In this document: positions 10,712 to 48,147 of the stretch, piece by piece
How positions within the stretch are numbered: the first letter of the stretch is position 1
Layout of the letters: each line of letters opens with the position of its first letter
NCBI GenBank assembly: GCA_000004985.1
Contig: GG738918.1
Length of the DNA: 64,000 nucleotides
Direction: 5' to 3' (one strand)
Source of the DNA: Naegleria gruberi
Taxonomy: Eukaryota
Made by a program: the position numbers and the translations under genes
The notes under the pieces: generated by a model
The model's input: only the letters and a program-made list of their open reading frames with translations
Told to the model about the DNA's origin: nothing
Databases searched by the model: none

Positions 10712-11194
10712 GATATTTTTTTTAATGTTGTTGTTATTAGTATCCAGTATTTACTAGTTTTCTAGTTTGGTGTGGAATAAAACAAGAAAAGACATGGTTC
10801 AATTATTGTTATTTGTTTAAATTTGAAATATATGTAACGGTTTTCTAAAGTGCCAAGAAATCACCTCGCTTATTAACCGTTTAAAAAAAAATTAATAAAA
10901 ATCTCAACAAAATTAATTACTTCCAGTTCATCATGAGTATTATTATTATTTCCAACTAATTTTAAGTTTAATATTATTTTTCAATTTTCATCATGTAACC
11001 CCACAAGAAGGATAACAACAATTCATGACCACCACCTCCAATTCCGGATGTTACCAACAAACATAGCACGATTACTATTTTACCTCATTCCGAAGATATA
11101 AAGTGTTGCTTGGATATTTATCAACACATCAATCGCACACAAGTTTTTGAAGATACACGATGTCAACAGGACGCTAAACAAATATCATCAAAAA

Positions 11195-14100: not shown

Positions 14101-17100
14101 TGATTCAGAGGATATTTTCAAACATGAAATGAAATTACAAGGAGAAATTTCTAAAATCCTTGTCGATTTGGAAAGAGAAGATAGTTCCAAGTTGGCCAAT
14201 TTCTCGCTTTCCAGTTTGAATGTAAATCTTTATATGGGAAAGAATAGTTTATCGTGTGAAGGAGATATTGGTACTGCCTATCTTTCACAACCTAATTCTA
14301 CATCTACTTATCCATATATTCTTTCTCCAAAATATTTGGGCGATCGCTCACTTATTAGATTTGCATACAGTCAAACAGATGATGAGCCAGTAATGAATAT
14401 AGAAAATTCAACCCGTGTTGTAAGAGGTTTCACCGAAAAGAAATCACTAAAGCTTGCAATGGCTTCAATTCAATTCATATTCATCAGCCAATTTATTGAG
14501 GACATTCAGAGTTATTTCCAAGATGGTCCACTATGGGAAGCTTTGGAAAATGGTGGAAAAATGATTAGTGACTATTCAAAAGAATTGATTTCTCAACAGG
14601 ATAAGAAATTGGAAATTATTTCTATGGACATTAAGGTGGAAGATCCAGTTGTTATTGCTCCAATACAAGACAATACTTTCACAGTTCACTTGGGAAATAT
14701 CAGATTAACCAATAAGGGAGACTGGGTTGAGAATGGAATTCCATGTGATAGCTATTCAATGATTTTCAATAGGATGAATTTACAAACTAAAATTAATGGA
14801 ATTGAAAAGACAGTGACTTCTCCATTCAATGTTGCTCTTGGATTGAAAAGAGTTCTCAAGAAGGATCACTTTCCAAGCATGTATTTGGATATTGAAATTG
14901 TACCAAAGGTTTTATTCACTTTGGAACATGCTCAGTATTTACTCTTGTTTCAACTTATTGATTCTTTCAATAAGAAACCAAGCGAAAGTAACGAAAAGAA
15001 ACAAGCAGAAGATTTGGAAAAGAAGGATAGTCTAACACTAATTGCTTTTATTAGAATCAAGTCCTTTGAGTTGGATGTAAAATCAGTAGCTGAGAATACT
15101 GATCTGGCCAAGTTGGAAGTTGAAGATTTCCAAATGAGATATTTCAAAGAACAATCTGGAGACAATATGCAATTCCTTGTCAAATCAATAATTGGAACTG
15201 ATCTAAGAGCTGAAAAGAATGAATATTTCACACAATTTATCACCACTCATTCCAAAACTACCAAGTGCTTGTCAGGTTCAATGATTACAAGAGGAAAGAA
15301 GAATGAAATTTCCCTCCAGATCAATAATCCAATTGTTACAATTATTCCTCAAGTATTTAAGGAGCTGCAAGAGTTCTTCTCCACAATGAAACTTGCTACA
15401 GAACCTCAAGAGGAAAAGAAACCAGAAAAGGAAATTAAGGAAGATGATTTAATGATATCTGTCAAATGTAACGATATTCGTGTAGCTCTTCCTGCCAATA
15501 ATTTCAATCAATTAGCATTCGTAATGAGATGCAAACAATTCTCAATGGAAGATATTCACAATTTCAATATTCATGATTTGGATCTTTCATTCCAAAAGAA
15601 TAGAAACAAATATGATGAGTACACCAACTATATTCTTCATCCAATTAGTTTGAATGTGAGCTATACGGATACTTTAATTATTCAGACAACTAGGGCAATT
15701 AATATTCGTATTTCAACAAGTATTATTCACCAAATTAGACAAGTTATGGACATGTTTACTTCTGAACTTTCCAAAATCAAAAAGACAACTGAAACCAAAT
15801 TGCCACCTTATCAAATTAACAACTTGCCTAATAATAAGGTAGATCTTTCGTATTTCGCTAACTTTTTTGCAAGTTTCAACCAAGAAACCAGATCTGAAAC
15901 CTTTAAATTTGAAGCATATCTAGTGTCAGGAATTTCCATTCTACTTGTCACTGATCGAAATGAAATTGACTTGCCAGCTCTACAACTCGATATTGAACAA
16001 GCGATCATTTCTGATTTCATTAGAATATCCAACATTCAACTATTGTGCTTCAATTTAAACTATGGAGTTTGGGAATCACTTGTGGAACCATTCACAGTTT
16101 CTGGATCTAGAAAAGGAAGCAATTACATTCTTGATATTCCAAAATGTTTATTGAATTTCAATAAGAATACATTCGAAATATTCAAATCTATAATGGAAAG
16201 TAAGGAAAGAAGTGTCATTACGAGAACTTTCTATCCAACAATTGTCAGAAACATGCATCCAACACCAATTACTATTAATGATCAATTACTGGAAGATGGT
16301 CAGGAATATATTGTGCAGGGAGAAGTTTCTTCTATTAGTTTCATTATTAATAATCAAACTTTCGTATTCTCCTTAAAGAAGAAACCAGGAACACATATTC
16401 TATCCTCTGAATGTTTACTCACTGTGGAAATTGTTGATGGAACAAGTTATTTTACCATTCATTCTTTGTATTCCATTGAGAATCAAACAGATGTCACCTT
16501 TGAAGTGTTGTACAATTCGAAACGATGTGGAAAACTTTCACCTAATCAAGTGAAATATCTTCCAAATGCTCCATTTGACAAGACCAATTTGAAAATTAGA
16601 CCATCCTATAGTGACGAGTACATGAGTCCAACATTCGAAGATCAAAATTCATCTCAATTCATCTTTATGAATAAGACTTCCAGTTTCTATTGTGAGTACG
16701 TGGAAGATATTGGACGAAACATGAAAAATTTCACAATTTCTCCACCTCTCAAACTAGAAAATAGAACTCCTATTGAATTGGACATGGAAATTAATGGAAA
16801 GAAATTTTCCTTACAAAAAGAATCCTCACTCTATTACTACTATGCCAATAAGGATTTCTCTGTGAACATTCTGACGAATAATCCTTCATTTAGTGATCAA
16901 TCATTCAGTGCCACAACCAGCAAAACCATGCAAATTTGTACGAATGGTAAAACTATTCCTCAAAAGCAAGAACCTAAAAAATCAAAATCATTTGCTGAGA
17001 TTGTCATTCGTGCACCTTTTTGGATTTTCAATGATTTGGAATTACCTATCAATATTAATGGAATTAATATTCTACCATTCAATTATACTACTATGAACAT

Positions 17101-19360
17101 CAATAATTTGACCATTTGTAGAGATGATAAAAACAAATTTACACCTAATTTGGATAAAATTCCACATGATACCATGGATTTGTGGAAATTAGGAGATAAA
17201 AGAATGGTTTACTATTTGAGAGAAACTGATGAGAGTAAATACATGTACCTCAGAGAAAGATATTACATTAGAAACAATACCAAATTTGATTTAAACATTA
17301 CTTTCGAGAAGAATTCATTCTCAGTCGCTGCAGGAAAGACACAACCTTATTCACATTACAATGATTCACTTCCTAAAATGAAAATCACTTTGGGAGAAGA
17401 GGAAAATATTGTGGAAACTAAATGTCAACAGGAATTGTCACTCAAATTTGGAAAATTCCTAAATGCCAAGCTTTTACTTAAGGAACAGGAAGGTTCAATG
17501 TTTGTGGTGATTAATGAAATACTATTGCCTGAATTTTACGTGGTCAACTCTACAGATTTGGAAATTGTAATTGATAAGGAAGGATTAGCTCCAAAAAATA
17601 TCAAACCCTATCTCAACATGCCCCAATCTGTTATAATTGACACCATTTCAGAGATTATCACCCTTAATAAGATTACAATGAATAAGGAAACAATGAAAAA
17701 GGTTGGAGATGAAGAAATTTATTACACACTCATTCCATATCAACAAGTAATCATTCTCCACATTCACAAAAAGAAAAAGACTGAGGAGAAGGATTATGAA
17801 CTGGCAGTAGATGTTACTTTCTATTCTATTGGAATTTCGATTATTGGTGAAAGTCAGGAATTGGCTTTTATTCATTTTGATCAATTATTTACTAAATTTG
17901 GAATGCTCAATACTCAATTTTGCGTTTATACTAAATTGCGTGGACTCCAAGTTGACGATCACAATGAACAAGAGGTCAACCCAGTTCAATTTGTGAATAT
18001 CAATTCTTCAGAGCAGAGTTTCATTGAATTTACAATAGAAAAGAATGGAAACTATTTTGAAACTGTTTCAGTAACTATCAGAGAAATGTTATTTAGCTCT
18101 AACAATATTTTCATTCAAAAGATGAGTGACGTATTCGCAAGTGCCATGAAACAAATGAAAGCAGTCCAAGAAACAAAACTAAATCAATTCTTGCAATATT
18201 TTGAAGTAGAGGAAAGTGAGAAAATGTTCTTTGGAAAGTTTGAACTCAATCCATTGAAAGTCGATGCTTCTTTCAAGGTGAAACCTTCCAATGATTTGAA
18301 ATACGATTTGGTTTATATTCTTTCCTCTTATGGAACTAAATTTACACACATTGAAAATGCCATAATTAGAATTTACGATTTCAAACTTCCTCAATCCTCA
18401 TTCGTTACCATGCAAGATGTTATGGAAAGAGTTGGAAAACACTACAAACGTCAAATCAAGTACAATTTATTGTCAATTATTGGATCGTTGAATACTTTTG
18501 GAAGTCCTATTCAATTATTTGGTGATTTGGCTTCAGGAGTTACTTCTCTATTTTATGAACCTGCAAATGCCATCACTGAAGGCCCACATATGTTCTTATT
18601 GGGTGTTGGTAAGGGATCTGTTGGATTTATTTCAAATTCTGTCAAGGGAGTAACTGGTTTCACATCAACAATTACAGGAACAGTTGGAAATACGCTTTCA
18701 ATCTTTACACTTGACAGAGATTTCGTCGAGAAGAGAGACAGGATTATGGAAAGGAAACCTGCCAATATTTTCCAAGGTATTGGACAAGGTATGCAAGTTC
18801 TCTTCACAGGACTCATTGATGGAGGTGTTGGAATTATTGCTCAACCAATTAAGGGAGCTAGAAAAGAGGGAGCTTTGGGATTGGCTAAAGGAGTTGTTCT
18901 TGGAATTGTTGGAATTCCTACAAAGCCAGTAGTTGGTATGATTGATTTTAGTATCAAGCAAATGCAAGGTATTCGAAACTTTAATCAATCATCACTTCAC
19001 AAAATTAGAGAAAATCCAAGAATGTTATTTAACGGAGTGATTAAACCATACAAGGAAAATATGGAATTGTTTTTGAGATTAATCCACAAATCCCAACAAT
19101 CAATAGAGTTTAATATTTTAATTCCTTTAGGAAAGACCTTGGCAATCACCAACAGACATTTGCTCATTCCACAATCAACCAACTCTAATGCACTTCAGGT
19201 TGTTGAATTGAATCAAGTGGAAGCTATTGAACAAGTAGATGATGATAATGTCAAGATTAGAGTGGCAAATCAAACAAGTTATTGTGTTTATTTGAATGTG
19301 GAGGCAGCTACTGTTCGTGCCTTGGTTGATAAGATGTTACGTGAGTTGAGTACTAATTAA
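11195..19360 (+). CDS. VPS13: VPS13-family bridge-like lipid transfer protein (chorein N-domain to VPS13/ATG2-type C-terminus), single exon
   Basis: The N-terminus MFESVVAKVLTATLGDYIENLDKQSLSVGVWNGKFKLTDLIVKRSALDLLDLPF matches the chorein-N motif of VPS13. The C-terminal region DLASGVTSLFYEPANAITEGP...GVGKGSVGFISNSVKGVTGF matches the VPS13 C-terminal (ATG_C-like) segment. It is a ~2720 aa uninterrupted ORF. The ATG at 11195 is chosen over the track start at 11147. Confidence 0.85.
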   Translation: MFESVVAKVLTATLGDYIENLDKQSLSVGVWNGKFKLTDLIVKRSALDLLDLPFSVVNGTVGLIEADIPWKSISTSSIKVRLSDIMLVVQPRRCEKIDETSERKRQRMVKQRKLTQYELRRKSENEVSNAASQATTTNQTEETNEKNEKNEKKQEGFVSRLTETIINNLQIEINNIHVRYEDDSDERFKVVMGATLESLSMSSCDVNWQESFLATTAKTFFKKLTLRNLSVYMNNNETELFSLMKNDLDNRKFIEHMRNIIVEKKNYRRFVLSPVNGELLLCMQKDEALDLERPRISAELRLESVNATLDERQYRNIQSTLDYITQFMEKPFDRPMFNSQNECQQYLSQSTDEKVTQFKNYMLMFKRSKKVAWLQPLTKDEAEKLLELEDFIHVDDIMKLREAAYLEIQIEEQKYKQKKKESSYWSKWFGSIDKTIEVTEEDRVEFSKLFGLEEDKGPSFILPPHFVNFALKVKINTIGVKLRNASTRTAAPDSVAVFELTQLLVDFKLRVEGFNVEVSLGGVSGVDNFSTRNEQSISEYYNFVKTNSVGNFVEFKMDSNPMNGVEQMDCKVGNLNVVLNLSLIQKMLSIFILPKYLQRSQFTAPSLPDTLKITKKILNAELDSISVIIPDTLSGKEYFQAHLGHSKLTKINEKIDISLTPIKLLHIGEAEDFTIIQPTDFSISMVQTIDQNLIDVKSTPLMVDVNPQVVTQLVRLGDTVSHFTNNPFGSSKESILIVNNVQMKLPKQEELSSAHIQLHDDGRLLVFKEESSLAPSHNIYFNTVQFHTETNSFKVVDFEFVLSNAKTFEEWKKNLESLLNKSISKAPLPPAIETIVNFSLDSIVLRALNDSSSSEVVAMAQANGLHTNVLARPNDNQVKVTLREITLHDGNQRKIFFSDHSTNIIEISIILCSNKESEFASQHSSKMFLNIKLSDMNLIFNTGIITKLFLFSKKINFEKESPIVMITEDDSEDIFKHEMKLQGEISKILVDLEREDSSKLANFSLSSLNVNLYMGKNSLSCEGDIGTAYLSQPNSTSTYPYILSPKYLGDRSLIRFAYSQTDDEPVMNIENSTRVVRGFTEKKSLKLAMASIQFIFISQFIEDIQSYFQDGPLWEALENGGKMISDYSKELISQQDKKLEIISMDIKVEDPVVIAPIQDNTFTVHLGNIRLTNKGDWVENGIPCDSYSMIFNRMNLQTKINGIEKTVTSPFNVALGLKRVLKKDHFPSMYLDIEIVPKVLFTLEHAQYLLLFQLIDSFNKKPSESNEKKQAEDLEKKDSLTLIAFIRIKSFELDVKSVAENTDLAKLEVEDFQMRYFKEQSGDNMQFLVKSIIGTDLRAEKNEYFTQFITTHSKTTKCLSGSMITRGKKNEISLQINNPIVTIIPQVFKELQEFFSTMKLATEPQEEKKPEKEIKEDDLMISVKCNDIRVALPANNFNQLAFVMRCKQFSMEDIHNFNIHDLDLSFQKNRNKYDEYTNYILHPISLNVSYTDTLIIQTTRAINIRISTSIIHQIRQVMDMFTSELSKIKKTTETKLPPYQINNLPNNKVDLSYFANFFASFNQETRSETFKFEAYLVSGISILLVTDRNEIDLPALQLDIEQAIISDFIRISNIQLLCFNLNYGVWESLVEPFTVSGSRKGSNYILDIPKCLLNFNKNTFEIFKSIMESKERSVITRTFYPTIVRNMHPTPITINDQLLEDGQEYIVQGEVSSISFIINNQTFVFSLKKKPGTHILSSECLLTVEIVDGTSYFTIHSLYSIENQTDVTFEVLYNSKRCGKLSPNQVKYLPNAPFDKTNLKIRPSYSDEYMSPTFEDQNSSQFIFMNKTSSFYCEYVEDIGRNMKNFTISPPLKLENRTPIELDMEINGKKFSLQKESSLYYYYANKDFSVNILTNNPSFSDQSFSATTSKTMQICTNGKTIPQKQEPKKSKSFAEIVIRAPFWIFNDLELPININGINILPFNYTTMNINNLTICRDDKNKFTPNLDKIPHDTMDLWKLGDKRMVYYLRETDESKYMYLRERYYIRNNTKFDLNITFEKNSFSVAAGKTQPYSHYNDSLPKMKITLGEEENIVETKCQQELSLKFGKFLNAKLLLKEQEGSMFVVINEILLPEFYVVNSTDLEIVIDKEGLAPKNIKPYLNMPQSVIIDTISEIITLNKITMNKETMKKVGDEEIYYTLIPYQQVIILHIHKKKKTEEKDYELAVDVTFYSIGISIIGESQELAFIHFDQLFTKFGMLNTQFCVYTKLRGLQVDDHNEQEVNPVQFVNINSSEQSFIEFTIEKNGNYFETVSVTIREMLFSSNNIFIQKMSDVFASAMKQMKAVQETKLNQFLQYFEVEESEKMFFGKFELNPLKVDASFKVKPSNDLKYDLVYILSSYGTKFTHIENAIIRIYDFKLPQSSFVTMQDVMERVGKHYKRQIKYNLLSIIGSLNTFGSPIQLFGDLASGVTSLFYEPANAITEGPHMFLLGVGKGSVGFISNSVKGVTGFTSTITGTVGNTLSIFTLDRDFVEKRDRIMERKPANIFQGIGQGMQVLFTGLIDGGVGIIAQPIKGARKEGALGLAKGVVLGIVGIPTKPVVGMIDFSIKQMQGIRNFNQSSLHKIRENPRMLFNGVIKPYKENMELFLRLIHKSQQSIEFNILIPLGKTLAITNRHLLIPQSTNSNALQVVELNQVEAIEQVDDDNVKIRVANQTSYCVYLNVEAATVRALVDKMLRELSTN

Positions 19361-26435: not shown

Positions 26436-27599
26436 TCACTTATCCTTCACAATTTCATTGTAACCTATATCAAGTGATGTTAACTGTTTCATTTCACTAA
26501 TGAATTTGACTCCTTCATCACCAATTTGATTTCCACCAATATAAAGTGATTTTAATTGTTTCATTTCACTTATGAATTTGGCTCCTTCAATACCAATTTG
26601 ATTGTTATAAATATTAAGTGATATTAATTGTTTCATTTCACTTATCAATTTGGCTCCTTCATCACCAATTTGATTTCCACCAATTTCAAGTGATGTTAAT
26701 TGTTTCATTTCACTTATTGGTATGACTCCTTCAACACCAATTTCATTTCCACTAATATCAAGTGATGTTAATTGTTTCATTTCATTTATAAATTTGGCTC
26801 CTTCATCACCAATTTGATTGTTATAAATACTAAGTGATTTTAATTGTTTCATTTCACTTATGAATCTGGCTCCTTCGGCGCCAATATGATTGTTATTAAT
26901 ACTAAGTAATGTTAAATGTTTCATTTCACTTATAGATTTGGCTCCTTTATCACCAATTCTATTGTTATTAAAATCAAGTGATGTTAATTGTTTCAGTTCA
27001 CTGATTGATTTTACTCCTTCATCACCAATTCCATTTCCACTAATATCAAGTGATGTTAAATGTTTCATTTCATTTATGAATTTGACTCCTACAACACCAA
27101 TTCGATTGTAACCTATATCAAGTGATGTTAATTGTTTCATTTCACTTATAAATTTGGCTCCTTCATCACCTATTCGATTTTCGCTAATATCAAGTGATTT
27201 TAATTGTTTCATTTCAGTTATGAATTTGACTTGTATAGAGTCAAGCAACCTTCTAGAAAATTTAAGATTAACAATACTATTCATAAATTGGCTTTTCATG
27301 CATAATTCAATCCTTGTTTCTGTAAATTTTTGTTTAAATTTAATAACAAGTTTTGAACGTTCCTTGATCACATTAAAGAATTGTTTTGAAATCAAGGAAC
27401 AATTATTCAAAATAAACCACGAATCATCAATCATGGAAATTATTTCAAAACAAACATCATCTGAAAATATTTCTTGTTCAAGCTTGACAACTTTTACTTT
27501 CCCTTCCATGTTAGTATTATTATTATTGATCATGAATAGCTCTTCCGAAATTAGTTGCTTTTCAAAATCTTGTCTTTGTTTACTCATTTTTTTTGGCAA
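26436..27599 (-). CDS. F-box-like + RNI-type LRR protein (paralog of 4102..5199), ~11 24-aa repeats
   Basis: 387 aa. The same N-terminal module (FSDDVCFEIISMIDDSWFILNNCSLISKQFF) and EMKQLTSLDI..N.IG.EG.KFI repeats are present. Confidence 0.7.
   Translation of the reverse strand: MPKKMSKQRQDFEKQLISEELFMINNNNTNMEGKVKVVKLEQEIFSDDVCFEIISMIDDSWFILNNCSLISKQFFNVIKERSKLVIKFKQKFTETRIELCMKSQFMNSIVNLKFSRRLLDSIQVKFITEMKQLKSLDISENRIGDEGAKFISEMKQLTSLDIGYNRIGVVGVKFINEMKHLTSLDISGNGIGDEGVKSISELKQLTSLDFNNNRIGDKGAKSISEMKHLTLLSINNNHIGAEGARFISEMKQLKSLSIYNNQIGDEGAKFINEMKQLTSLDISGNEIGVEGVIPISEMKQLTSLEIGGNQIGDEGAKLISEMKQLISLNIYNNQIGIEGAKFISEMKQLKSLYIGGNQIGDEGVKFISEMKQLTSLDIGYNEIVKDK
26440..27240. repeat. 72-bp coding tandem repeats (LRR units) inside gene 26436..27599
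   Basis: Periodic ...tgtttcatttcacttat... units are visible in the DNA. Confidence 0.7.
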
Positions 27600-30486: not shown

Positions 30487-30873
30487 GAAGAATTGTTGTT
30501 GATGATGATGAATTTGTTAATACATATATATGAGACTACATCAGACTACACCAATTCCTATTCTCTGATCAGCTTGCTTATATATTATAGGTAGCTACCT
30601 AGACCTTGTTCATGTATTTTGTAATTTAGAATGATTAATATTATTATTGTATAATAATTGTGTATTATAACCTCATCATCATAGTGAGAGTAAAAGAACA
30701 GAAAGAAGAATAATTATCATCAAACTGGAATGATCTCTTCCTACTTGTAGTGTATACAATAAACTCCACTTTATATGGAGTATTAATCCTCTCTAATTTA
30801 TTATCAATTTAGTCAATCCATTCTCCTCAATATAATCTTCTTCTTATAATATTCGAAAATTTAGAATTACAAT

Positions 30874-32572
30874 TTATTTTGATTGAACCAAAGCTTGTAA
30901 ATATCTTCTCTGGTGTTCCCTAATTGAATACTCTGTAATATCCTTAAAGACAGTCAACAAATTATTCTCATCAAAGGCATTCAACACTCTCACTAACATG
31001 GATGGTCCAGCATTCTCATCATTTGGATCGACACAACATTCTCCTGGATTGAGTAGTAATTGTCGAGTCTTTACACTTGAGGAATACTTATCAACAATGA
31101 ATTGAATGCAATCATCAATGTTCTGTCCATTCTTATCAGAAGGAAAGTCATCAAAGTGAGATGCAAATGATTGGTTGACTAGTTTTTGTTCCAAAACGTC
31201 TTTCTTATTGAAAAGTAGGACGAAAGGAAGTTTGGCAAATGAAGGATTATAGAGCAAGTTCATGAAAATATCGAAACTTTCTTTCCATCTTGGAGTTTCT
31301 CCATCTTCAAAACAATTCGTATCAAATTCTGATAAGGAAACAACAAATAGAATGACATCTGCTGAATTAAATTGGTGAATCCACTTTTTTCTTTCATGTC
31401 TGGATCCTCCCATGTCAATCATTGAGACAGTGACAGCATCTTCAACTCTGTACTTTAATTCTTGTACTCCAAGAGTCTTTTCTCTCAAAAGTAAGACATC
31501 TCTCAATGTTGGAACATAATCATCATTGAAAACTCTATCAAAATTGGTAAAAAAACTAATCAAGGTCAATCAGGAATTATTCAGTTACTGAGATTACTTA
31601 CTATTCTGCGTTATCGTAGACTCTAAATTCATTTCTTCTCTTAAATGACTCTTGAATTCCTTCATCATTCCATAACTTGACAAAAAACTCACAAAATTCC
31701 TTTGAAACTTTACAATTTCCACTCACAGTATACAAACTCTCAACTCCATCCATCTCACTAACTTTATCAGCAAAATCAAAAGCTTTTGCTTTCAATTCTT
31801 CTCCACCTCGAATATCAATTGCTAAATCTTCACTTCCCTCAATGACCCATCTCATATTATGGAGAACATTCTCTCTAATAACTTGAACGAAACCTTTCAA
31901 ATCATTCTCATTGTAAAATGTAGAAACGTCAATGTCAATGAGACTAGTTGATCTCTGAGCAGGTCCTTCACATAGATATTTCATTAGTTTAAAGAGAAGA
32001 GATTTTCCAACTTCTCCTGCACCTAAAAGTAAAATGTTCAGCTTGTCAGGTTCAATTTGAGTGTGATTCTTGACTGACATTTGAGAGCTGTAACGACGCC
32101 TTGGAGAAGTATTGACAGAAAGAAGGTTTGGAGGTGGTGGATTATCTTTTAAGAGTATGGCATTAACATTTCCATTAACACTTGATCCATTCAAATTATT
32201 ATTCGAAATGTCTTTTGTCAAATCATTAGACGAAACTCTCAATTTACTATCTCCCACTCCAAGAGTTGGTGATGAATGAAAACCTATCGAAGGATTAAGC
32301 AATGAGCCACCACTTCCAACCGAAACAAGTGGATGATTCGAACCATTCAAATTATTATTGAACGAACCTGACTTTTTTAATTTTGCAGCTAAATTTGCTG
32401 TTTGTTTCGAAAAGGAATTATTATTAGTCGAATTTTGAAGATTATTGAAGGAAGCTTGGTTCATGAATGGAGAGGTAGGTGAGGTTGGTGATTTGGGTGA
32501 GTTGGGTTGTGATTTTGATTTTGAAATGTGTGAGGCATCGTCAGACGAAATTGCCGAAACGCCAATTCCCAT
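30874..32572 (-). CDS. Heterotrimeric G protein alpha subunit, 2 exons (32572..31602; 31555..30874), 46-bp intron 31556..31601; long low-complexity N-terminal insertion
   Basis: MGIGVS N-terminus (myristoylation consensus). P-loop LLLGAGEVGKSLLFKLMK. Across the splice: YDNAEY|FFTNFDRVFNDDYVPTLRDVLLLREKT (switch I), DMGGSRHERKKWIHQF (switch II, DxxGQ-like) and LLFNKKDVLEQK (NKxD). Donor gtaagt, acceptor gattag. Confidence 0.8.
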
Positions 32573-35306: not shown

Positions 35307-36146
35307 ATGCTCAACATCTCTGTCGAGGAAATTGTTCATCACTTGAATGAACACCTTCAAAAAGCCTATGAATCATCACCGAAATTGGAACAATATGAAA
35401 ATCCACGAATTGTTCAACAAGATGATATTCTACTTGTAGGAGTTTACGGATCACATATTTATGGATTGGCAACTGAACAATCAGACTTGGATATTTTCAT
35501 AATTGCATCGGAAGGGTTGGATGGTGAATTGGCCAAGTTGAGAGAGTTGATTCCGAACAAGCAGGATTATTCATATCAAGTAACTGAATTGCAAATTAAT
35601 GGAAAACAAGTTGATTTTTCAATTTATTCGGAAAAGTTATTTAGAGAATTATTGATGAGATTTATTTTGGATAGTTTTGAATTTTACTCGATTTTAATGA
35701 TGAGAAGAGAGTGGATGGTTCATGTGAATGAAGAGTTTGCTCAGCAAATTAAGGAATATGTGGAGAATAATGTTGTGAATTCTGCTGAGAGAGCTCTCAA
35801 TCTAAGAAAGGCAATTTCCAGAGAATCAGATCACTCATTTGTGAAAGGAAAGAACAAGATTGTAAAGGAATTCAAAGTTTATAAGGGAATCAAAGCCATG
35901 TTTCATTCATTGAGAACTGTAGTATTTGGCATTCAAATTGCAAAACACAACCAAGTCATTGATTTCTCCAAAGCAAACGAATATTGGAAAGAATTTGAAT
36001 TGTTCTACAGGGAAAAGATTGAATCTCAATTGAATGTTGAACCAATAGATTATGAAAAGATTTGGCTCACACTACGTGAGGAATTTCAACCAAAACTCAG
36101 ACAACTCCAGACAGAGTTTCGAATGGCAGCCAAATCCTCCCTCTAG
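35307..36146 (+). CDS. Pol-beta-superfamily nucleotidyltransferase (GS...SDLD motif), single exon
   Basis: LLVGVYGSHIYGLATEQSDLDIFIIAS gives the G[S]x9-13 D-x-D signature. A third acidic residue may be QVDFSIY. It is ~280 aa and no PAP-associated domain is recognised. Subfamily is unassigned. Confidence 0.55.
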   Translation: MLNISVEEIVHHLNEHLQKAYESSPKLEQYENPRIVQQDDILLVGVYGSHIYGLATEQSDLDIFIIASEGLDGELAKLRELIPNKQDYSYQVTELQINGKQVDFSIYSEKLFRELLMRFILDSFEFYSILMMRREWMVHVNEEFAQQIKEYVENNVVNSAERALNLRKAISRESDHSFVKGKNKIVKEFKVYKGIKAMFHSLRTVVFGIQIAKHNQVIDFSKANEYWKEFELFYREKIESQLNVEPIDYEKIWLTLREEFQPKLRQLQTEFRMAAKSSL

Positions 36147-36312
36147 TCCCAATTTGGAAGGCAACTGATTCTCATGTCCATTCGTGTTCACAATAAGCAG
36201 CAGGTCACAACCACCACTGAAATATTTTAGACGTTTACATGTGTCACTGCAAGTTCTTTTCTCACCTTTTCTCGACCAATGGGATATTAGGAAAAAACAT
36301 CATGCGAAAAAA

Positions 36313-37919
36313 ATGATCAAGGTCTCTACTGTTTCCTTGACTTTAGCCATCTGTTTGATGGTTTTGTGTCTTTGTTTTATTGGAAACACAAGTGCACGTT
36401 CCATTGCCATCAAGAATAGAGCTGGAGGAGATTTGACACTTGTAATTGATTTTGGAAAGGGAAAAGATTCATCTTCTTCATCATCTGAAAAGAAAAAACA
36501 AGAATTACCAGCAGTGGACGAAACTACAAAGAAAGTTATTGACAAAGTCCAAGATGTGATCAGTAGTAGTGAAGAGAAGCAAATTGCCGAATCCTTGTTG
36601 ACATTTGCTAATGAAATTAGACAGGTAAGTAGTTGGCAACAACTGCACTAGATCAACAAGATTATTTCTATTGTCATTAGATGGAAAAACTAATTCCAGG
36701 ATCAAACTCTGAGCAAAAACTTGTTAAACAAGAACTTTTGGCCATTATTAATGAATTCACAAAGGAATCTGAGAAACCTTCTGCCTTCATCTTGAAATCT
36801 TCCCTTGAAATGGTTGCTGATGCCAAGAAGAAGAAAACAGAGCAACAACAAGCTGAACCTGGTTCAGTATCCTCTGGAGCTCAATCTCTCTTTATTCAAG
36901 CTGGTATTAGTGTATTGAACGATGCCATGAATTTTGTTGATGGAATTGGAACATATTCCACCAAAATGTCAAGTGTTGGTAATTGGATTAGTGGAAAGCT
37001 TGCAACCAAGTTGGATTCCTGGGGATTAAAATCTGTAGCTCAATTCGCTAAAAACACTGGTAAATCCATTGATGGATTAGCTAAGAAAGTAGCTCCATAT
37101 GAACAAAAATTGGCCAAAGCAATTGCTCCTGTTGTTAAATCGAAAACTTTCCAATCCATCAAGAGAGTTGTCAATGTTGTTGGTGGTGCAATCAGTATCA
37201 AGAATGGTTTGAAACATCTTGGAATGTTACCTAAACAATTACCAAAAGCTTTCAACAAGTTGAAATCCACACTTACCAAGGCAGCTGCACCAATTAAGAC
37301 TAAAGCAGCTTCCTTGATTAAAAAGGTCACTAAATCTGGAGCTGCCGTCAAGAAGGCCAACAGTGCCAAGAAAGCTGCCAAAGCTGCAAAAGATGCTAAG
37401 AAAGCTACCAAGGCCGCCAAGAAAGCTGCCAAGACTGCTAAGCAACCAGGAAAATTGGCAAAGGCCTTTGGAAAAGCTAAAGCTGTTAAGGATGTTAAGG
37501 ATGGTTTTGGTGATATGAAGAGTGGCTTGTTTGGAGAAGGAAAACCAAAGAAATCTCAAACTAACAACAAGAAACAAACTGCCAATAATAGAAGAACAAC
37601 AAATAATCAAACTAATAACAGAAGAACTGCCAACAATCAAACTGCCAACAGAAGAACTGCAAATAATCAAAGAGGAAATACCAGAAACTCTTCCACTAGA
37701 ACTAATAGTAGTAGAAGAAGTACTTCATCTTCAAGAAGCTCACCTACAAGAAACAGTACTAACAATAGAGGAAGACAAACAACTAGTAGAACTAGCTCAA
37801 CCAGTAGAAGAACATCATCACCAAGTGGAAGACAATCAAGCAGTAGAAGTAGCAGCTCTTCAAGAGGGTCCTCTGGCGGAAGTCGATCATCAGGTGGTAG
37901 CAAAGGAGGAAGAAGATAA
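36313..37919 (+). CDS. Secreted protein family member B (tandem paralog of A): 2 exons (36313..36624; 36681..37919), 56-bp intron
   Basis: Signal/TM MIKVSTVSLTLAICLMVLCLCFIGNTSA. Exon 1 ends ...FANEIRQ|gtaagt at the same position and phase as in A. Exon 2 is MEKLIPGS... Conserved core FVDGIGTYSTKM...APVVKSKTFQ. Tails are AKKAAKAAKDAKKATKAAKKAAKTAK followed by NNRRTTNNQTNNRRT... and RS-rich. Confidence 0.6.
37330..37900. repeat. Coding low-complexity repeats: about 12-15 nt period (AKKAAK), then 24-nt period (TANNRRTxNNQ), then Ser/Arg-rich
   Basis: gccaagaaagctgccaaagctgcaaaagatgctaagaaagctacc...; actgccaataatagaagaacaacaaataatcaaactaataacagaagaactgccaacaatcaa. Confidence 0.6.
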
Positions 37920-43630: not shown

Positions 43631-45247
43631 TCAACATGTCTTTTCTTGGTAAAATGGCAAAGTCCAAAAACTGGTAGACTTTGTGTGGGATTTTTGAATT
43701 TCTTCATCATTTCTAATGGATAAATCTATTAGTTTGAATGCTCTTGAATCATGACTCAAGGCCACCAAAGCAATCTCTTTGTCTCTTCTCCAGCTTGGAT
43801 CGACATACATGAAAGGACAGCCATTATTGAGAGCTTTGATAATAATTTCACGATCCATTTTCCAAGAATTTTGGACAAACTTGAGAGCTATGCCATTTTG
43901 TCTGACAGCTGTCAATACAACTTCTCTTTGGTCCTTGAATTTAGAGTAAATATATTGTAAAGACGTTCCATCAGTTTGTACAGCATCCATCACAATGTCC
44001 AAGGTCTGAATCAAACTGGATTGAATTGAATTTGGGTTCTGCCCTATAGCCATTTTAACAATCTCAATATTTTCCCTAATTGATGCTGAGAAATAGTGTA
44101 ATAGAAGGCCATTTCTTTGGACAACCTGTCGAGCAATATCAACATCATCGTTCAATGGATAATCAATGTTTCTCATTACATTGGGGTTAATTTCTATCAA
44201 TTGGAGAATGAAATCCTTGTCTGTTCTCAAACTCGAATCAGCATATACAATATTGGATGGAGATTGTTTCACAGCTTCAATGAAAACTGTTTTGTCCTTA
44301 AGAAAGTTTCGAGCATATTGCAAATTGGTTGGATCTATTTTCAGTGCTTCAAGTACCATTTCCTGACTGATGATATTTTGTGGAATGCTATTTAATTTGA
44401 AAAAGCCTTCCTTGACAACCATAAGAGCTAGATCTGGATTTGCTTGCATTTCTGAAGATAATTTTTTGTAATCCAAGGGCCTTTTCTTAATCCAATACTT
44501 TAAAAACTCAATATTACTAATCGCATAAAGAATTGAAGAATTATTCCTCACAGCAGCACAAAGAATTTCAAAATCATTCATGAATTTTCCATCTGCACAT
44601 GTCAGAGCCGTTGCATTATGTCTTACAACTTTTAAAACCACGTCTCTATCAGATTTGATCGAATCATCAAATGCCATAAGTGATCGTAAGACCTTTCCTA
44701 AAATACAGGCAATCTCCTTATCTTTCCTCAATCCATCTGAAAGACATGATGAAATGGCCGAAAGAATATAATCACGAGTACAATATTTAGTGGCCACTTG
44801 CTTAATCCACTCCTTATCTGAGAATAAGTTGTGCTTTTTAAAATGATTTTCAATATATCTCGTATGCAATTCAAAGTGATCATTGCAATATCTAAACACA
44901 TGAAGAGCAACTTGCTTCTCGAATTGAATTTCTGGAAGGAAACGAATAATCTTCCAATCCATCAGTGCCAAAGAGATGAGAAATTGTCGATCCCTTTTCA
45001 AATCAATCAATTGCTCTGAAAATACCAATTCTCGTAAGCATTCGGGATTTGTTTGTACCATCATACGAATTTCTACCTTCCTCCGATAGGAAATATCAGA
45101 GATTTTGCAAAAAAGCCTCTCGGATAGATAGTCAGCATCGAGAATACAACAACATCTCCCATTACCATTTGAAAAAGTATGGAATTTTTTCTTTAAATTT
45201 TGAAAGATCTCAAATTTTAATATTGTAAAATTATTATTTTCAATCAT
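43631..45247 (-). CDS. DUF4116-like repeat protein (second family member in window)
   Basis: 538 aa with repeated LRTDKDFILQLIEINPNVMRNI / DREVVLTAVRQNGIALKFV / DKEIALVALSHDSRAFKLI motifs. Confidence 0.55.
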   Translation of the reverse strand: MIENNNFTILKFEIFQNLKKKFHTFSNGNGRCCCILDADYLSERLFCKISDISYRRKVEIRMMVQTNPECLRELVFSEQLIDLKRDRQFLISLALMDWKIIRFLPEIQFEKQVALHVFRYCNDHFELHTRYIENHFKKHNLFSDKEWIKQVATKYCTRDYILSAISSCLSDGLRKDKEIACILGKVLRSLMAFDDSIKSDRDVVLKVVRHNATALTCADGKFMNDFEILCAAVRNNSSILYAISNIEFLKYWIKKRPLDYKKLSSEMQANPDLALMVVKEGFFKLNSIPQNIISQEMVLEALKIDPTNLQYARNFLKDKTVFIEAVKQSPSNIVYADSSLRTDKDFILQLIEINPNVMRNIDYPLNDDVDIARQVVQRNGLLLHYFSASIRENIEIVKMAIGQNPNSIQSSLIQTLDIVMDAVQTDGTSLQYIYSKFKDQREVVLTAVRQNGIALKFVQNSWKMDREIIIKALNNGCPFMYVDPSWRRDKEIALVALSHDSRAFKLIDLSIRNDEEIQKSHTKSTSFWTLPFYQEKTC

Positions 45248-46689: not shown

Positions 46690-48147
46690 ATGAAAGTCTC
46701 ATTGTTACTTGTTGCTGTCATCTTTGCCATGATGATGATGGCCATGAACATTCATGCCGAAAAGACCTTTGAAATTCCTTTGAGAAAGAGAGCCTACGAT
46801 GATGCTCGTGCTGCCTCTGTCAAACTCTCCAAGATGAGAAGCATTCAAACACAAAACAAACTTCGTTCCTTGTTGTACTCTGCCACACGATTGGCCACCA
46901 CAAAGCCATCCCTCAAGGTTGGTGCCACTCCAATTGTTCCATTGAAGGACTATGATGATGTCGAATATTATGGAGAAATTACCATTGGTACTCCTGCTCA
47001 AACTTTCAAAGTTGTTTTTGATACTGGAAGCTCCAACTTGTGGGTTCCTAGTGTTGCCTGTAAGGATTTGAGTTGTGTTAGACATGCTAGATATAATCAT
47101 ACCAAGTCTTCTACCTATGTTCCAAATGGACAATCATTCAATATTACTTATGGTACTGGTGCTGTTAAGGGTGTAAGTTTTTTTGAATTGGATGATGAAT
47201 TTATTAATTATTATTATTATAATTATTATTATTGAAAATTAATTATATTGAAATGCATAATGTTTAAATTAATTTATATAATATTGTATACAATATATTC
47301 GGAATATTAGATTTTGTCAAGTGATACCGTTGTTGTTGGTGGATTGGCTATTAAGGGTCAAGTTTTTGGTGAAACTACCAATGAATATACTGATACTTTC
47401 TTGAATGCCAAGATTGATGGTATTTGTGGATTTGTAAGTATTTAATCTTTCTTTTATCCTTAATATTAATCTAATAATATTAATATTAATATTCTAATTA
47501 ATTAATTCAACAATTTATTATCGGAATAATTTAAATAGGCTTTCCCAAATATTGCTGTTGATGGTGTTACTCCAGTTTTCAACAACTTGATGAAGCAACG
47601 TCTCGTTGATAAGAACATTTTCTCCTTCTACATGTCTAAGAAGGCTGGAAGTGGTGCTTCTGCAATGATTTTGGGTGGAATCAATTCTAAATATTATACT
47701 GGTTCTTTTAGCTATGTTCCATTGATTCAACATAATTATTGGAGTATTGCTTTGGATGATATTGCAATGAATGGACAAGGACAAAGTTTGTGTGGATTTG
47801 GATGTATGGCCATTGTTGATACTGGTACTAGTTTGATTGCTGGAACACCAGATGTTATGCAACCAATTATTAATCAACTTAATGTTGCTGAAGATTGTTC
47901 TAATATTGATTCTAATCCAAATGTTTCATTTGTCATTGGTGGAAAGCAATATCTTTTGACTCCAAGAGACTATGTCATTAAGATTACCTCTCAAGGACAA
48001 ACTCAATGTTTCCCAGGTTTCCAAACTATGGATATGGGTACTAATGGATTCGTCATCCTTGGTGATGTTTTCATCTCCACTTATTACACTGTCTTTGATT
48101 ATGAAGGTTCTAGAGTTGGATTTGCCAAGTCAAATCAAAACCTTTAA
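46690..48147 (+). CDS. Pepsin-family (A1) aspartic protease, secreted; 3 exons (46690..47172; 47311..47433; 47539..48147)
   Basis: Signal peptide. Catalytic motifs [13 protein letters not shown] and [12 protein letters not shown]. Exon junctions ...GTGAVKG|[11 protein letters not shown] and ...IDGICGF|AFPNIAVDG. Donors gtaagt at 47173 and 47434. Acceptors tattag (47310) and aaatag (47538). Introns are extremely AT-rich. Confidence 0.85.

What the first reader, a model, noticed from the sequence alone, without database searches (positions are those of the whole stretch)
30874..32572. G-alpha subunit with a ~170-aa low-complexity insertion between the myristoylation signal and the P-loop, and a 46-bp intron in the switch I region
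The N-terminus MGIGVS fits the N-myristoylation consensus. The GTPase core (GAGEVGKS ... DMGGSRHERKKWIHQF ... NKKD) is canonical, except that Ser replaces the catalytic Gln of DxxGQ. Canonical Gln appears as R/S-H here, which could lower intrinsic GTPase activity and increase dependence on the abundant RGS GAPs nearby. A Ser/Asn/Pro-rich insertion of ~170 residues precedes the P-loop, which is unusual.
Basis: partly seen in the sequence, partly recalled or inferred. Interest (0 to 1): 0.5.

Follow-up and report, generated by a model that had tools for sequence, protein, structure and literature searches.

The report
Split-annotated Naegleria G-alpha lacking catalytic glutamine
This is a real, intact Naegleria gruberi G-protein alpha-subunit gene, wrongly split into two "predicted proteins" in the public annotation, with a long floppy N-terminal tail and serine in place of the glutamine that normally hydrolyses GTP, so it is probably a slow or locked-on switch; it is an unusual member of a family already known to hold such deviants.

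Summary
On the minus strand, exon 1 (32572..31602), a 46-nt GTAAGT...TAG intron (31601..31556, phase 2) and exon 2 (31555..30874) give a 550-aa protein that matches Pfam G-alpha end to end (E 3e-81). Both Willaertia magna relatives carry an intron in the same codon and phase. The N. gruberi reference annotation misses the intron and splits the gene into NAEGRDRAFT_74849 (323 aa) and NAEGRDRAFT_74848 (179 aa).

Ser375 (TCC) sits in a gapless DMGGSRHERKKW where 156 of 156 aligned homologues have Gln. An independent metagenome contig has the same codon and intron. T48 is also replaced (Leu), and TCAT reads LNAF. The Mg2+, phosphate and guanine contacts and the arginine finger are kept.

The 183 residues before the P-loop are 53% S/N/P/G/T, form a maintained ORF, and are predicted disordered with no alpha-N helix.

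Most likely this is a lipid-anchored, GTP-binding, GTPase-impaired atypical G-alpha. Only one clear RGS gene lies in the window, about 16 kb away. Deviant catalytic motifs in some Naegleria G-alphas are already reported, so interest is modest.

The parts
30874..32572 (-). Complete G-alpha gene: 2 exons, 550 codons plus stop
   Evidence: Spliced translation. Pfam G-alpha E 3.1e-81.
31602..32572 (-). Exon 1 (aa 1-323 plus two bases of Tyr324). Identical to the public model XP_002670218.1 / NAEGRDRAFT_74849, which stops at the TAG formed by TA|G of the donor
31556..31601 (-). 46-nt phase-2 intron, GTAAGTAATC...TTGATTAG
   Evidence: Gapless alignment across the junction. Intron in the same codon and phase in Willaertia P0159 (41 nt) and P0039 (49 nt). 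Identical in the unspliced metagenome contig L001.
30874..31555 (-). Exon 2 (last base of Tyr324, aa 325-550, TAA). The public model XP_002670217.1 / NAEGRDRAFT_74848 covers only its last 179 codons
32555..32572 (-). Start codon and MGIGVS, an N-myristoylation-type motif (Gly2, Ser6)
   Evidence: Read directly from the sequence. It is the first in-frame ATG. Both Willaertia relatives also start with MG.
32048..32572 (-). Low-complexity N-terminal extension (about aa 1-175). Ser/Asn/Pro/Gly/Thr-rich, predicted disordered, no alpha-N helix
   Evidence: Composition. Stop-free only in frame 0, and 0 of 20000 shuffles stop-free. AF2 with MSA gives pLDDT below 50 and no secondary structure before residue 187. 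Small internal NNNLNGS duplication.
31997..32023 (-). P-loop GAGEVGKSL (aa 184-192). Lys and Ser kept; S44V and T48L in Galpha-i1 numbering
   Evidence: T48 is Thr in 156/156 homologues, S44 is Ser in 152/156.
31925..31972 (-). About 14-16 aa insertion in linker 1 (CEGPAQRSTSLIDIDV, aa 201-216) relative to the Willaertia relatives
31468..31485 (-). Switch I REKTLG (aa 348-353). The arginine finger and the Mg2+-binding Thr are kept; the RGS-contact Thr182 is Leu
31381..31416 (-). Switch II DMGGSRHERKKW (aa 371-382). The Ser375 codon TCC at 31402..31404 replaces the catalytic Gln; His377 stands where Ser or Asn is usual
31198..31209 (-). G4 motif NKKD (aa 440-443), intact
31000..31050 (-). About 14-17 aa insertion (NPGECCVDPNDENAGPS, aa 493-509) just before the G5 strand, relative to the Willaertia relatives
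30970..30984 (-). G5 motif LNAFD (aa 515-519) in place of TCATD. The guanine-contact Ala and the following Asp are kept

Best explanation
This is an intact, two-exon Naegleria gruberi gene for an atypical heterotrimeric-G-protein alpha subunit.

Shown here:
- It has the full G-alpha architecture: a Ras-like domain plus an inserted helical domain.
- It keeps the residues that bind Mg2+, phosphate and guanine (P-loop Lys/Ser, switch I Thr, DxxG Asp/Gly, NKKD, G5 Ala) and the cis arginine finger.
- It has Ser where every sampled canonical G-alpha has the catalytic Gln.
- It also has non-canonical residues at T48, S44, T182, S206 and in TCAT.
- It starts with a myristoylation-type MG motif, followed by about 175 disordered low-complexity residues and no recognisable alpha-N helix.

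Inferred, not measured:
- The protein is membrane-tethered through a long flexible linker.
- It binds GTP but hydrolyses it very slowly, and RGS domains cannot rescue the rate.
- It therefore sits mostly in the GTP form, especially if it exchanges nucleotide spontaneously as some Naegleria G-alphas do.
- Its output would then be set by abundance, localisation or modification of the Ser-rich tail rather than by a receptor/RGS-timed cycle. This would be a G-alpha counterpart of the GTPase-deficient atypical small GTPases.
- Lacking alpha-N, it may bind G-beta-gamma weakly or not at all.
For: Gene structure:
- Spliced CDS and translation.
- Pfam and PDB alignments are gapless over the junction and over switch II.
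- The intron position and phase are conserved in Willaertia P0159 and P0039.
- The independent contig L001 has the same intron and the same Ser codon, with 2 differences in 796 nt.

Residue pattern:
- Per-column counts against 156 homologues.
- Clade alignment.
- 388 of 397 switch II motifs among about 400 collected G-alphas carry Q.

Selection:
- The 550-codon ORF is stop-free, as were 0 of 2000 shuffles; the N-terminal ORF is stop-free, as were 0 of 20000 shuffles.
- The distance to its nearest relative (0.605) is similar to the distance between the two Willaertia relatives (0.602). The lineage is therefore not evolving like a dead gene.

Disorder and missing alpha-N:
- AF2 with a 90-sequence MSA gives pLDDT below 50 and no helix before residue 187, while the helical domain reaches pLDDT 82-98.

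Mechanistic background:
- Q204L is GTPase-deficient (PMC3285607).
- RGS4 accelerates R178C but not Q204L (PMC10996109).
- Some N. fowleri G-alphas are self-activating, with hydrolysis rate-limiting, and P-loop variants there slow hydrolysis and abolish RGS action (PMC9283941).
Against: - No biochemical data exist for this protein. Ser is polar and small, so residual hydrolysis cannot be excluded.
- No transcript evidence was available. No spliced full-length product is present in the protein collections searched.
- No close orthologue was found (best 41% identity over exon 2), so conservation of Ser375 over time is untested. The word-index search is not exhaustive: it missed P0158, so a Naegleria orthologue may have been missed too.
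- T48L and the G5 changes could weaken nucleotide binding more than assumed.
- The AF2 model covers only the exon 1 product, so the absence of alpha-N is a prediction on a fragment.
Confidence: 0.55

Rival explanations
1. Decaying paralogue or young pseudogene. One of the roughly 44 N. gruberi G-alpha copies has lost selective constraint and is accumulating hits in invariant catalytic residues. The protein, if made at all, has no function.
For: Several residues that are invariant or nearly so are replaced at once: Q204, T48, S44, T324, T327. No close orthologue was found. No transcript-derived copy was found. Large lineage-specific expansions (PMC3971589; PMC8584482) typically carry dying members.
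Against: The ORF is intact over 550 codons with a canonical, positionally conserved intron. At only 33-41% identity to its nearest relatives it still keeps K46, S47, E43, R178, T181, D200, G202, G203, R205, E207-W211, N269, K270, D272, A326 and D328, which requires long-term purifying selection. Its branch is not elongated relative to the Willaertia relatives. The 183-codon low-complexity tail is kept open.
Confidence: 0.15
2. Nucleotide-independent pseudo-GTPase scaffold, analogous to plant extra-large G proteins. The altered P-loop (T48L, S44V) and G5 (LNAF) weaken nucleotide binding so much that the protein acts through protein-protein contacts regardless of GTP or GDP.
For: Invariant T48 is lost and G5 is altered. 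There are insertions at linker 1 and before G5. There is precedent: XLG2 has much reduced nucleotide binding yet keeps its RGS and G-beta-gamma interactions (bioRxiv 10.1101/795088 abstract; PMC8584482).
Against: Unlike XLGs, every residue that directly ligates Mg2+, the beta/gamma-phosphates and the guanine base is retained (K, S, T181, D200, NKKD, A326). The P-loop GAGEVGKSL is Ras-like (Ras has GAGGVGKSA; own knowledge), so Val and a non-Thr residue at these positions are compatible with tight binding. There is no Cys-rich or NLS region like that of XLGs (sequence).
Confidence: 0.15
3. A normally cycling G-alpha whose missing Gln is supplied in trans or by another residue. This could be a dedicated GAP that inserts a catalytic side chain, as RapGAP does for Gln-less Rap, or the nearby His377.
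For: The arginine finger and the whole phosphate cage are intact, so the chemistry could be completed by one extra residue. His at position 206 is unique among the 157 aligned sequences. Naegleria has more than 100 RGS-domain proteins of varied architecture (PMC9283941).
Against: No G-alpha GAP of this type is known. RGS domains do not insert catalytic residues (PMC10996109). His377 is two residues away from the catalytic position. There is no linked candidate gene: the neighbours are a methyltransferase and ORFs without a Pfam match.
Confidence: 0.07
4. The public annotation is right. There are two separate genes, or the locus yields only the exon 1 product (N-tail, P-loop and helical domain) ending at TAG.
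For: The reference models XP_002670218.1 (323 aa) and XP_002670217.1 (179 aa) exist. An unspliced transcript would terminate at TAG TAA right at the donor.
Against: Neither fragment is a complete GTPase domain. The second model starts at an internal Met inside switch II and leaves 47 homologous codons unannotated. The junction restores uninterrupted G-alpha homology. The same TA|GT...AG|T intron is annotated as spliced in two Willaertia homologues.
Confidence: 0.05

Closest known systems
Canonical heterotrimeric G-alpha subunits (Pfam PF00503), e.g. N. fowleri Galpha7 (PDB 6NE6) and human Galpha-i1
   Same: Full Ras-like plus helical-domain architecture. P-loop GxGExGKS, arginine finger, switch I Thr, DxGG, ERKKWIH, NKKD, G5 Ala. 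N-terminal MG lipidation-type motif.
   Different: Catalytic Gln is Ser. T48 is Leu, S44 is Val, T182 is Leu, S206 is His, TCAT is LNAF. 183 rather than about 40 residues precede the P-loop, and no alpha-N helix is predicted. Extra loops at linker 1 and before G5.
Willaertia magna G-alphas KAL9653899.1 (P0159) and ABK040_008126 (P0039), the nearest relatives found
   Same: Same phase-2 intron in the Tyr codon of AEY(F/L)F. G5 of the xAxD type (SAID / NAFD). Switch I K(T/S)LG. SLSEFD..C(Y/F)E and ET(W/P)R motifs. MG start with low-complexity N-terminal regions. They group together in an NJ tree.
   Different: Both Willaertia proteins keep Gln (DVGGQRNERKKW), Thr48 and a GPGE(S/N)GKST P-loop. 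Their N-terminal regions are 51 and 69 aa, not 183. Identity is only 33-41%. Bootstrap support for the clade is modest, 117/200.
Other naturally Gln-less G-alphas of protists, e.g. Leptophrys vorax EP00475_P008830 (DVGGSRGERKKW) and Willaertia ABK040_010009 (DVGGHREERRNW). Deviant catalytic motifs are also reported for some Naegleria, Dictyostelium and plant G-alphas.
   Same: Sporadic loss of the catalytic Gln in lineage-specific paralogues with the rest of switch II retained. The general phenomenon is stated in PMC8584482, citing Anantharaman et al. 2011.
   Different: They are not close relatives of this gene, so the losses are independent. None has been characterised biochemically as far as I could find. 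The primary survey (Anantharaman 2011) could not be read here, so I cannot say whether this locus, split in the annotation, was included.
Engineered or oncogenic GTPase-deficient G-alpha mutants (Galpha-i1 Q204L, Galpha-s Q227L) and Nf Galpha1 with its natural slow P-loop
   Same: A change at a catalytic position that slows hydrolysis and removes RGS acceleration (PMC3285607; PMC10996109; PMC9283941).
   Different: Those are laboratory or somatic mutants, or a P-loop variant. Here the change is germ-line, to Ser, and comes with further substitutions. The effect has not been measured.
Plant extra-large G proteins (XLG1-3)
   Same: A G-alpha-like domain with a long N-terminal extension and deviant catalytic motifs (PMC8584482).
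   Different: XLGs lose many nucleotide-binding residues and carry a Cys-rich/NLS N-terminal region. This protein keeps the binding residues. Its extension has no Cys and starts with a myristoylation-type motif.
Atypical GTPase-deficient small GTPases (Rnd/RhoE, RhoH) and Rap (Thr61); own knowledge
   Same: Natural replacement of the switch II Gln in an otherwise competent GTP-binding fold. These are regulated by expression or phosphorylation (Rnd) or by a GAP that supplies the residue in trans (Rap).
   Different: A different family, with no helical domain and no cis arginine finger. This is an analogy of mechanism only and was not tested.

Membership tests
Heterotrimeric G-protein alpha subunit (PF00503) | Significant full-length match to the family profile | tested here: met
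   273.5 bits against a cut-off of 48.8. Residues 163-532 on profile positions 9-331 of 333. 353 PDB G-alpha chains at E below 1e-3, best 6NE6 at 1e-44.
Heterotrimeric G-protein alpha subunit (PF00503) | All-helical domain inserted between alpha-1 and switch I | tested here: met
   Aligned throughout. The AF2 model of the exon 1 product shows helices at 222-249, 258-273, 291-301 and 304-311 with pLDDT 82-98.
Heterotrimeric G-protein alpha subunit (PF00503) | G1 P-loop GxGxxGK(S/T) | tested here: met
   GAGEVGKS at aa 184-191. However, the following invariant Thr (156/156) is Leu, and Ser44 is Val.
Heterotrimeric G-protein alpha subunit (PF00503) | Cis arginine finger and Mg2+-binding Thr in switch I (R178, T181) | tested here: met
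   R348 and T351 in REKTLG.
Heterotrimeric G-protein alpha subunit (PF00503) | G3 DxxGQ with the catalytic Gln (Q204) | tested here: not met
   DMGGS: Ser375, codon TCC. Gln in 156/156 homologues and in 388/397 motifs. Gapless alignments. Confirmed in the independent contig.
Heterotrimeric G-protein alpha subunit (PF00503) | G4 NKxD and G5 (T)CA(T) guanine-recognition motifs | tested here: met
   NKKD is intact. G5 reads LNAF, with Ala326 and Asp328 kept and T324, C325 and T327 replaced. The Willaertia relatives have SAID.
Heterotrimeric G-protein alpha subunit (PF00503) | Amphipathic alpha-N helix that binds G-beta-gamma | tested here: inconclusive
   AF2 with MSA predicts no helix before residue 187 and gives pLDDT below 60 for residues 150-180. 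The sequence SPRRRYSSQMSVKNHTQIEPD is Ser/Pro-rich. The model is of a fragment, and binding itself was not tested.
Heterotrimeric G-protein alpha subunit (PF00503) | N-terminal lipid modification (myristoyl-Gly2 and/or palmitoyl-Cys) | not testable with these tools
   MGIGVS fits MGxxxS/T by inspection, and there is no Cys near the N-terminus. Modification needs experiment.
Heterotrimeric G-protein alpha subunit (PF00503) | GTP binding and hydrolysis; G-beta-gamma, receptor and RGS interaction | not testable with these tools
   Biochemistry is required.
Plant-type extra-large G protein (XLG) | Cys-rich/NLS N-terminal domain plus a G-alpha-like domain lacking most nucleotide-binding residues | tested here: not met
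   The N-terminal 183 aa contain no Cys, and the nucleotide-binding residues are retained. Not a member; only a loose analogy.
Heterolobosean G-alpha subclade (this gene, Willaertia P0159 and P0039) | Shared phase-2 intron in AEY(F/L)F, xAxD G5, K(T/S)LG switch I; monophyly | tested here: met
   Introns. Motifs. NJ grouping, but bootstrap only 117/200. Whether the intron position is also shared outside the clade was not tested.

The most novel reading that the evidence does not exclude
This would be a naturally Gln-less, myristoyl-tethered G-alpha that has shed the alpha-N helix and works outside the heterotrimer cycle. One version is a permanently GTP-loaded signal, or an RGS-domain sink, whose activity is set by its Ser-rich disordered tail. 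The more radical version is that a dedicated GAP switches it off by inserting the missing catalytic residue in trans, as RapGAP does for Rap. No such mechanism has ever been described for a G-alpha.
Probability: 0.07. Interest if true: 0.7.

Novelty: new member of a known kind. Interest (0 to 1): 0.3.

Why it matters
Two practical points follow.

First, the N. gruberi reference annotation (NAEGRDRAFT_74849 and NAEGRDRAFT_74848) should be merged into one 550-aa G-alpha. Surveys that rely on the annotated proteome will have counted two fragments or dropped the gene.

Second, the protein is a ready-made natural experiment on the catalytic Gln. Everything else needed for GTP binding is present. 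In Naegleria, some G-alphas self-activate and more than 100 RGS proteins exist. A paralogue that should be immune to RGS-timed shut-off is therefore a useful probe of how the network is wired.

On its own it is an expected kind of deviant in a roughly 44-member expansion, and the existence of such deviants is already in the literature.

Tried and rejected
- AlphaFold on exon 2 alone, single sequence: mean pLDDT 45, unusable. The spliced full-length protein cannot be submitted to the structure or representative-search tools, so no full model and no fold search were made.
- Search for close orthologues. Two word-index searches with the protein, one with a clade profile, an exhaustive HMMER search with exon 2 and two JGI metagenome scans found nothing closer than Willaertia P0159 (41% over exon 2), apart from a near-identical ENA contig. 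The word-index tool missed the 100%-identical P0158, so its negative results are weak. Orthologues at 50% identity or more would be hidden inside P0158's 50% cluster.
- dN/dS. The only close sequence (L001) differs by one synonymous and one V-to-I change, which is too few to be informative.
- My first reading of G5 as 'ECCVD' was wrong. The alignment places G5 at LNAFD, and the CC stretch is a loop insertion.
- RGS clustering. 33 of the other ORFs of 150 aa or more were scanned, and only 48198..49988 (-) has a significant RGS domain. tblastn with that RGS box found no other copy in the window.
- GTAAGT frequency is not enriched in the window: 12 and 8 copies per strand, against my hand estimate of about 22 expected by chance from base composition. 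The donor hexamer alone is therefore no evidence for the intron.
- Anantharaman et al. 2011, the primary survey of Naegleria G-alphas, is not held. No paper mentions the locus tags.
- P0040, the closest N. gruberi paralogue: its contig is not on record, so its intron structure could not be compared.
Full report
**Source and gene model**

The window is Naegleria gruberi. Exon 1 of the feature is 100% identical to XP_002670218.1 / NAEGRDRAFT_74849 / UniProt D2W0G5, a 'predicted protein' of 323 aa on a 222-kb scaffold.

The gene lies on the minus strand. The first in-frame ATG is at 32572. An open frame runs to 31602. There the sequence GAA TA|GTAAGT begins a 46-nt intron (31601..31556) that ends GATTAG. 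Exon 2 (31555..30874) completes the Tyr codon (TA|T) and continues to TAA at 30876..30874. The spliced CDS is 1653 nt and encodes 550 aa.

**Support for the intron**

Four independent lines support the intron.

- It restores an uninterrupted match to Pfam G-alpha: E 3.1e-81, residues 163-532 on profile positions 9-331 of 333. It also gives a gapless alignment across the junction to N. fowleri Galpha7, PDB 6NE6, where ...NEFRVYDNAEYFFTNFDRV aligns with ...NEFQIEDSASYYFDNLDRI.
- It is 3n+1 long and carries in-frame stops, so read-through is impossible.
- The two closest relatives found, Willaertia magna KAL9653899.1 (P0159) and ABK040_008126 (P0039), each have an annotated intron in exactly the same codon and phase (GAG TA|GTACGT...TTTAG|T and GAA TA|GTAAGT...AATAG|T). 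These introns are 41 and 49 nt.
- Short GTAAGT...TAG introns occur elsewhere in the window, for example a 56-nt phase-0 candidate at 36625..36680.

**The public annotation is split**

The reference annotation missed the intron. Model 74849 ends at the TAG created by the donor. A second model, NAEGRDRAFT_74848 / XP_002670217.1 (179 aa), starts at the internal Met of M-GGSRHERKKW. The 47 homologous codons in between are left unannotated.

**Independent confirmation of the sequence**

An ENA metagenome contig (ERZ929261, 796 nt, locus L001) covers the end of exon 1, the unspliced intron and all of exon 2. It differs at 2 of 796 positions: one synonymous change and one Val-to-Ile change. It has the same intron and the same Ser codon. 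The unusual features are therefore not assembly or sequencing errors.

**Catalytic core**

I aligned the protein with human GNAI1 and 156 homologues and counted residues per column.

Retained residues:
- G40, A41, G42, E43, G45, K46, S47
- R178 (arginine finger) and T181
- D200, G202, G203, R205, E207, R208, K209, K210, W211
- N269, K270, D272
- A326, D328

Replaced residues:
- Q204 to Ser375 (Gln in 156/156 homologues)
- T48 to Leu (Thr in 156/156)
- S44 to Val (Ser in 152/156)
- T182 to Leu
- S206 to His (no other His in that column)
- TCAT to LNAF

The switch II alignment is gapless with 11 of 12 flanking positions conserved, and the only nearby Gln is the one in WIHQF. The codon TCC (31404..31402) differs from CAA/CAG at all three positions.

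Across about 400 collected G-alphas, 388 of 397 switch II motifs have Gln. The exceptions are scattered. They include a Leptophrys vorax transcript with Ser and a Willaertia paralogue with His. Natural loss of the Gln is therefore rare but not unique.

A review states that N. gruberi has about 44 G-alphas. It also states that deviation of conserved catalytic motifs occurs in some G-alphas of Dictyostelium, Naegleria and plants, citing Anantharaman et al. 2011 (PMC8584482). I could not read the primary paper. No paper in the library mentions these locus tags.

**N-terminal region**

183 residues precede the P-loop, against 39 in Galpha-i1. They are 53% S/N/P/G/T and only 13% charged. They contain a small NNNLNGS duplication and no Cys.

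The region is a maintained reading frame. Frame 0 has no stops, against 10 and 19 in the other frames, and 0 of 20000 composition-preserving shuffles were stop-free. There is no donor-like site in the region, and third-position composition matches the core.

AF2 on the exon 1 product with a 90-sequence alignment gives pLDDT below 50 and no secondary structure up to about residue 160. No helix is predicted before the P-loop helix at 187. The helical domain is confident, at pLDDT 82-98. The tail is thus an N-terminal extension that stands where the alpha-N helix normally is, rather than an insertion into a canonical N-terminus.

The Willaertia relatives also begin with MG and have low-complexity N-termini, but of only 51 and 69 aa. 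MGIGVS fits the MGxxxS/T myristoylation consensus by inspection only.

Relative to the Willaertia proteins there are two further loop insertions, at aa 201-216 (linker 1) and aa 493-509 (before G5).

**Relationships**

The nearest sequences are Willaertia P0159 (41% over exon 2; E 1.4e-45 in an exhaustive HMMER search of 1.84 billion representatives), P0039, and the N. gruberi paralogue P0040 (37%).

An NJ tree groups the query with the two Willaertia proteins, with bootstrap 117/200. This fits the shared intron, the xAxD G5 motif, the K(T/S)LG switch I and the SLSEFD..C(Y/F)E motif.

Both Willaertia proteins keep Gln and Thr48, so these losses arose on the N. gruberi lineage. The query's distance to P0159 (0.605) is about the same as the distance between P0159 and P0039 (0.602). 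The lineage has therefore not evolved at a runaway rate.

No closer orthologue turned up in any search. The word-index tool demonstrably misses sequences, since it missed P0158, and 50% clustering could hide orthologues. Absence from other Naegleria species is therefore not established.

**Mechanism**

Shown: the complete G-alpha fold signature, an intact nucleotide/Mg2+ cage and arginine finger, no catalytic Gln, a disordered lipid-anchor-type tail, and no predicted alpha-N helix.

Inferred from family knowledge:
- Replacing this Gln gives GTPase-deficient, constitutively active G-alphas (Q204L; PMC3285607).
- RGS4 accelerates GTP hydrolysis by Galpha-i1 R178C but not by Q204L (Berman et al. 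1996, as cited in PMC10996109).
- In N. fowleri, several G-alphas self-activate with hydrolysis rate-limiting. A natural P-loop variant there slows hydrolysis and abolishes RGS action (PMC9283941).

The best reading is a membrane-tethered, GTP-binding but hydrolysis-impaired and RGS-resistant atypical G-alpha. It would be controlled by abundance, localisation or tail modification.

The context does not support it either. Among the 33 other ORFs of 150 aa or more that were scanned, only one, at 48198..49988 (-), has a significant RGS domain. It lies about 16 kb away and is separated from this gene by unrelated genes.

**Rivals**

- Young pseudogene. This is disfavoured by the intact ORF, the conserved intron and the retention of about 20 invariant residues at 33-41% identity.
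- XLG-like, nucleotide-independent scaffold. This is possible if T48L and the LNAF G5 weaken binding, but the binding residues are kept and the P-loop is Ras-like.
- A trans-acting GAP or His377 completing catalysis. There is no precedent and no linked candidate gene.
- The split annotation being correct. This is contradicted by the homology across the junction and by the Willaertia introns.

**Verdict**

The object is an unusual member of a family already known to contain such deviants, so novelty and interest are modest.

Noticed in passing
window 30874..32572 (-): The N. gruberi reference annotation splits this one gene into two 'predicted proteins': NAEGRDRAFT_74849 (323 aa, ending at the TAG of the intron donor) and NAEGRDRAFT_74848 (179 aa, starting at an internal Met in switch II). 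47 homologous codons are left unannotated.
   Followed up: yes
window 48198..49988 (-) and 51383..53023 (+): A divergently oriented pair of paralogous single-pass membrane proteins. Each has a weak CHASE4-like N-terminal region, one or two hydrophobic segments, and a PAS-like or coiled middle. The first ends in a clear RGS domain (E 4e-10). The second has a similar but unscored C-terminus. This looks like a sensor-RGS architecture different from the 7TM-RGS proteins described for N. fowleri.
   Followed up: partly
window 36625..36680 (+): Candidate 56-nt phase-0 intron (GTAAGT...CATTAG). It would join ORF 36184..36651 to ORF 36681..37919 in frame, so these adjacent ORFs may be one gene; whether the nucleotidyltransferase-like ORF 35307..36146 belongs to it was not tested.
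   Followed up: partly
window 46690..47235 (+) and 47587..48147 (+): An aspartyl protease (Pfam Asp) is split over two ORFs, with profile positions 74-128 missing between them. This implies at least one small exon and introns in the 352-nt gap.
   Followed up: no
window 11147..19360 (+): A 2737-aa uninterrupted ORF with a VPS13-like N-terminal region (E 2.6e-83), a giant lipid-transfer-type protein.
   Followed up: no
window 7279..8979 (-) and 43631..45247 (-): Two proteins built of DUF4116 repeats, with 5 and 7 matched stretches. There are also two LRR_6-type leucine-rich-repeat proteins at 4102..5199 (-) and 26436..27599 (-).
   Followed up: no
L001 (ENA ERZ929261, contig k127_326019, 796 nt): A metagenome assembly holds a genomic fragment 794/796 nt identical to window 30872..31667. 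An N. gruberi-like amoeba was therefore present in that sample (PRJEB11402).
   Followed up: partly
L002 6001..7428 and L003 1501..2746 (Willaertia magna GCA_041937235.1): The Willaertia relatives have very short introns of 41, 47, 47 and 49 nt. P0159 has two extra introns, one inside switch II after RKKW. It also has its own Asn/Thr-rich low-complexity insertion at linker 1, the same site where the N. gruberi protein has a 14-16 aa insertion.
   Followed up: partly
proteins P0224, P0202/P0407, P0263, P0269, P0295, P0296, P0330, P0169: Other G-alphas carry a non-Gln residue at the catalytic switch II position. They include Ser in a Leptophrys vorax transcript and His in Willaertia ABK040_010009, plus environmental sequences with Ala, Glu, Val, Thr and His and a further protein of undetermined source with Leu. 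These look like independent losses.
   Followed up: partly
proteins P0160, P0161 (chytrid fungi): Chytriomyces hyalinus and Entophlyctis luteolus proteins appear to contain two tandem G-alpha domains in one polypeptide of 738 and 868 aa.
   Followed up: no
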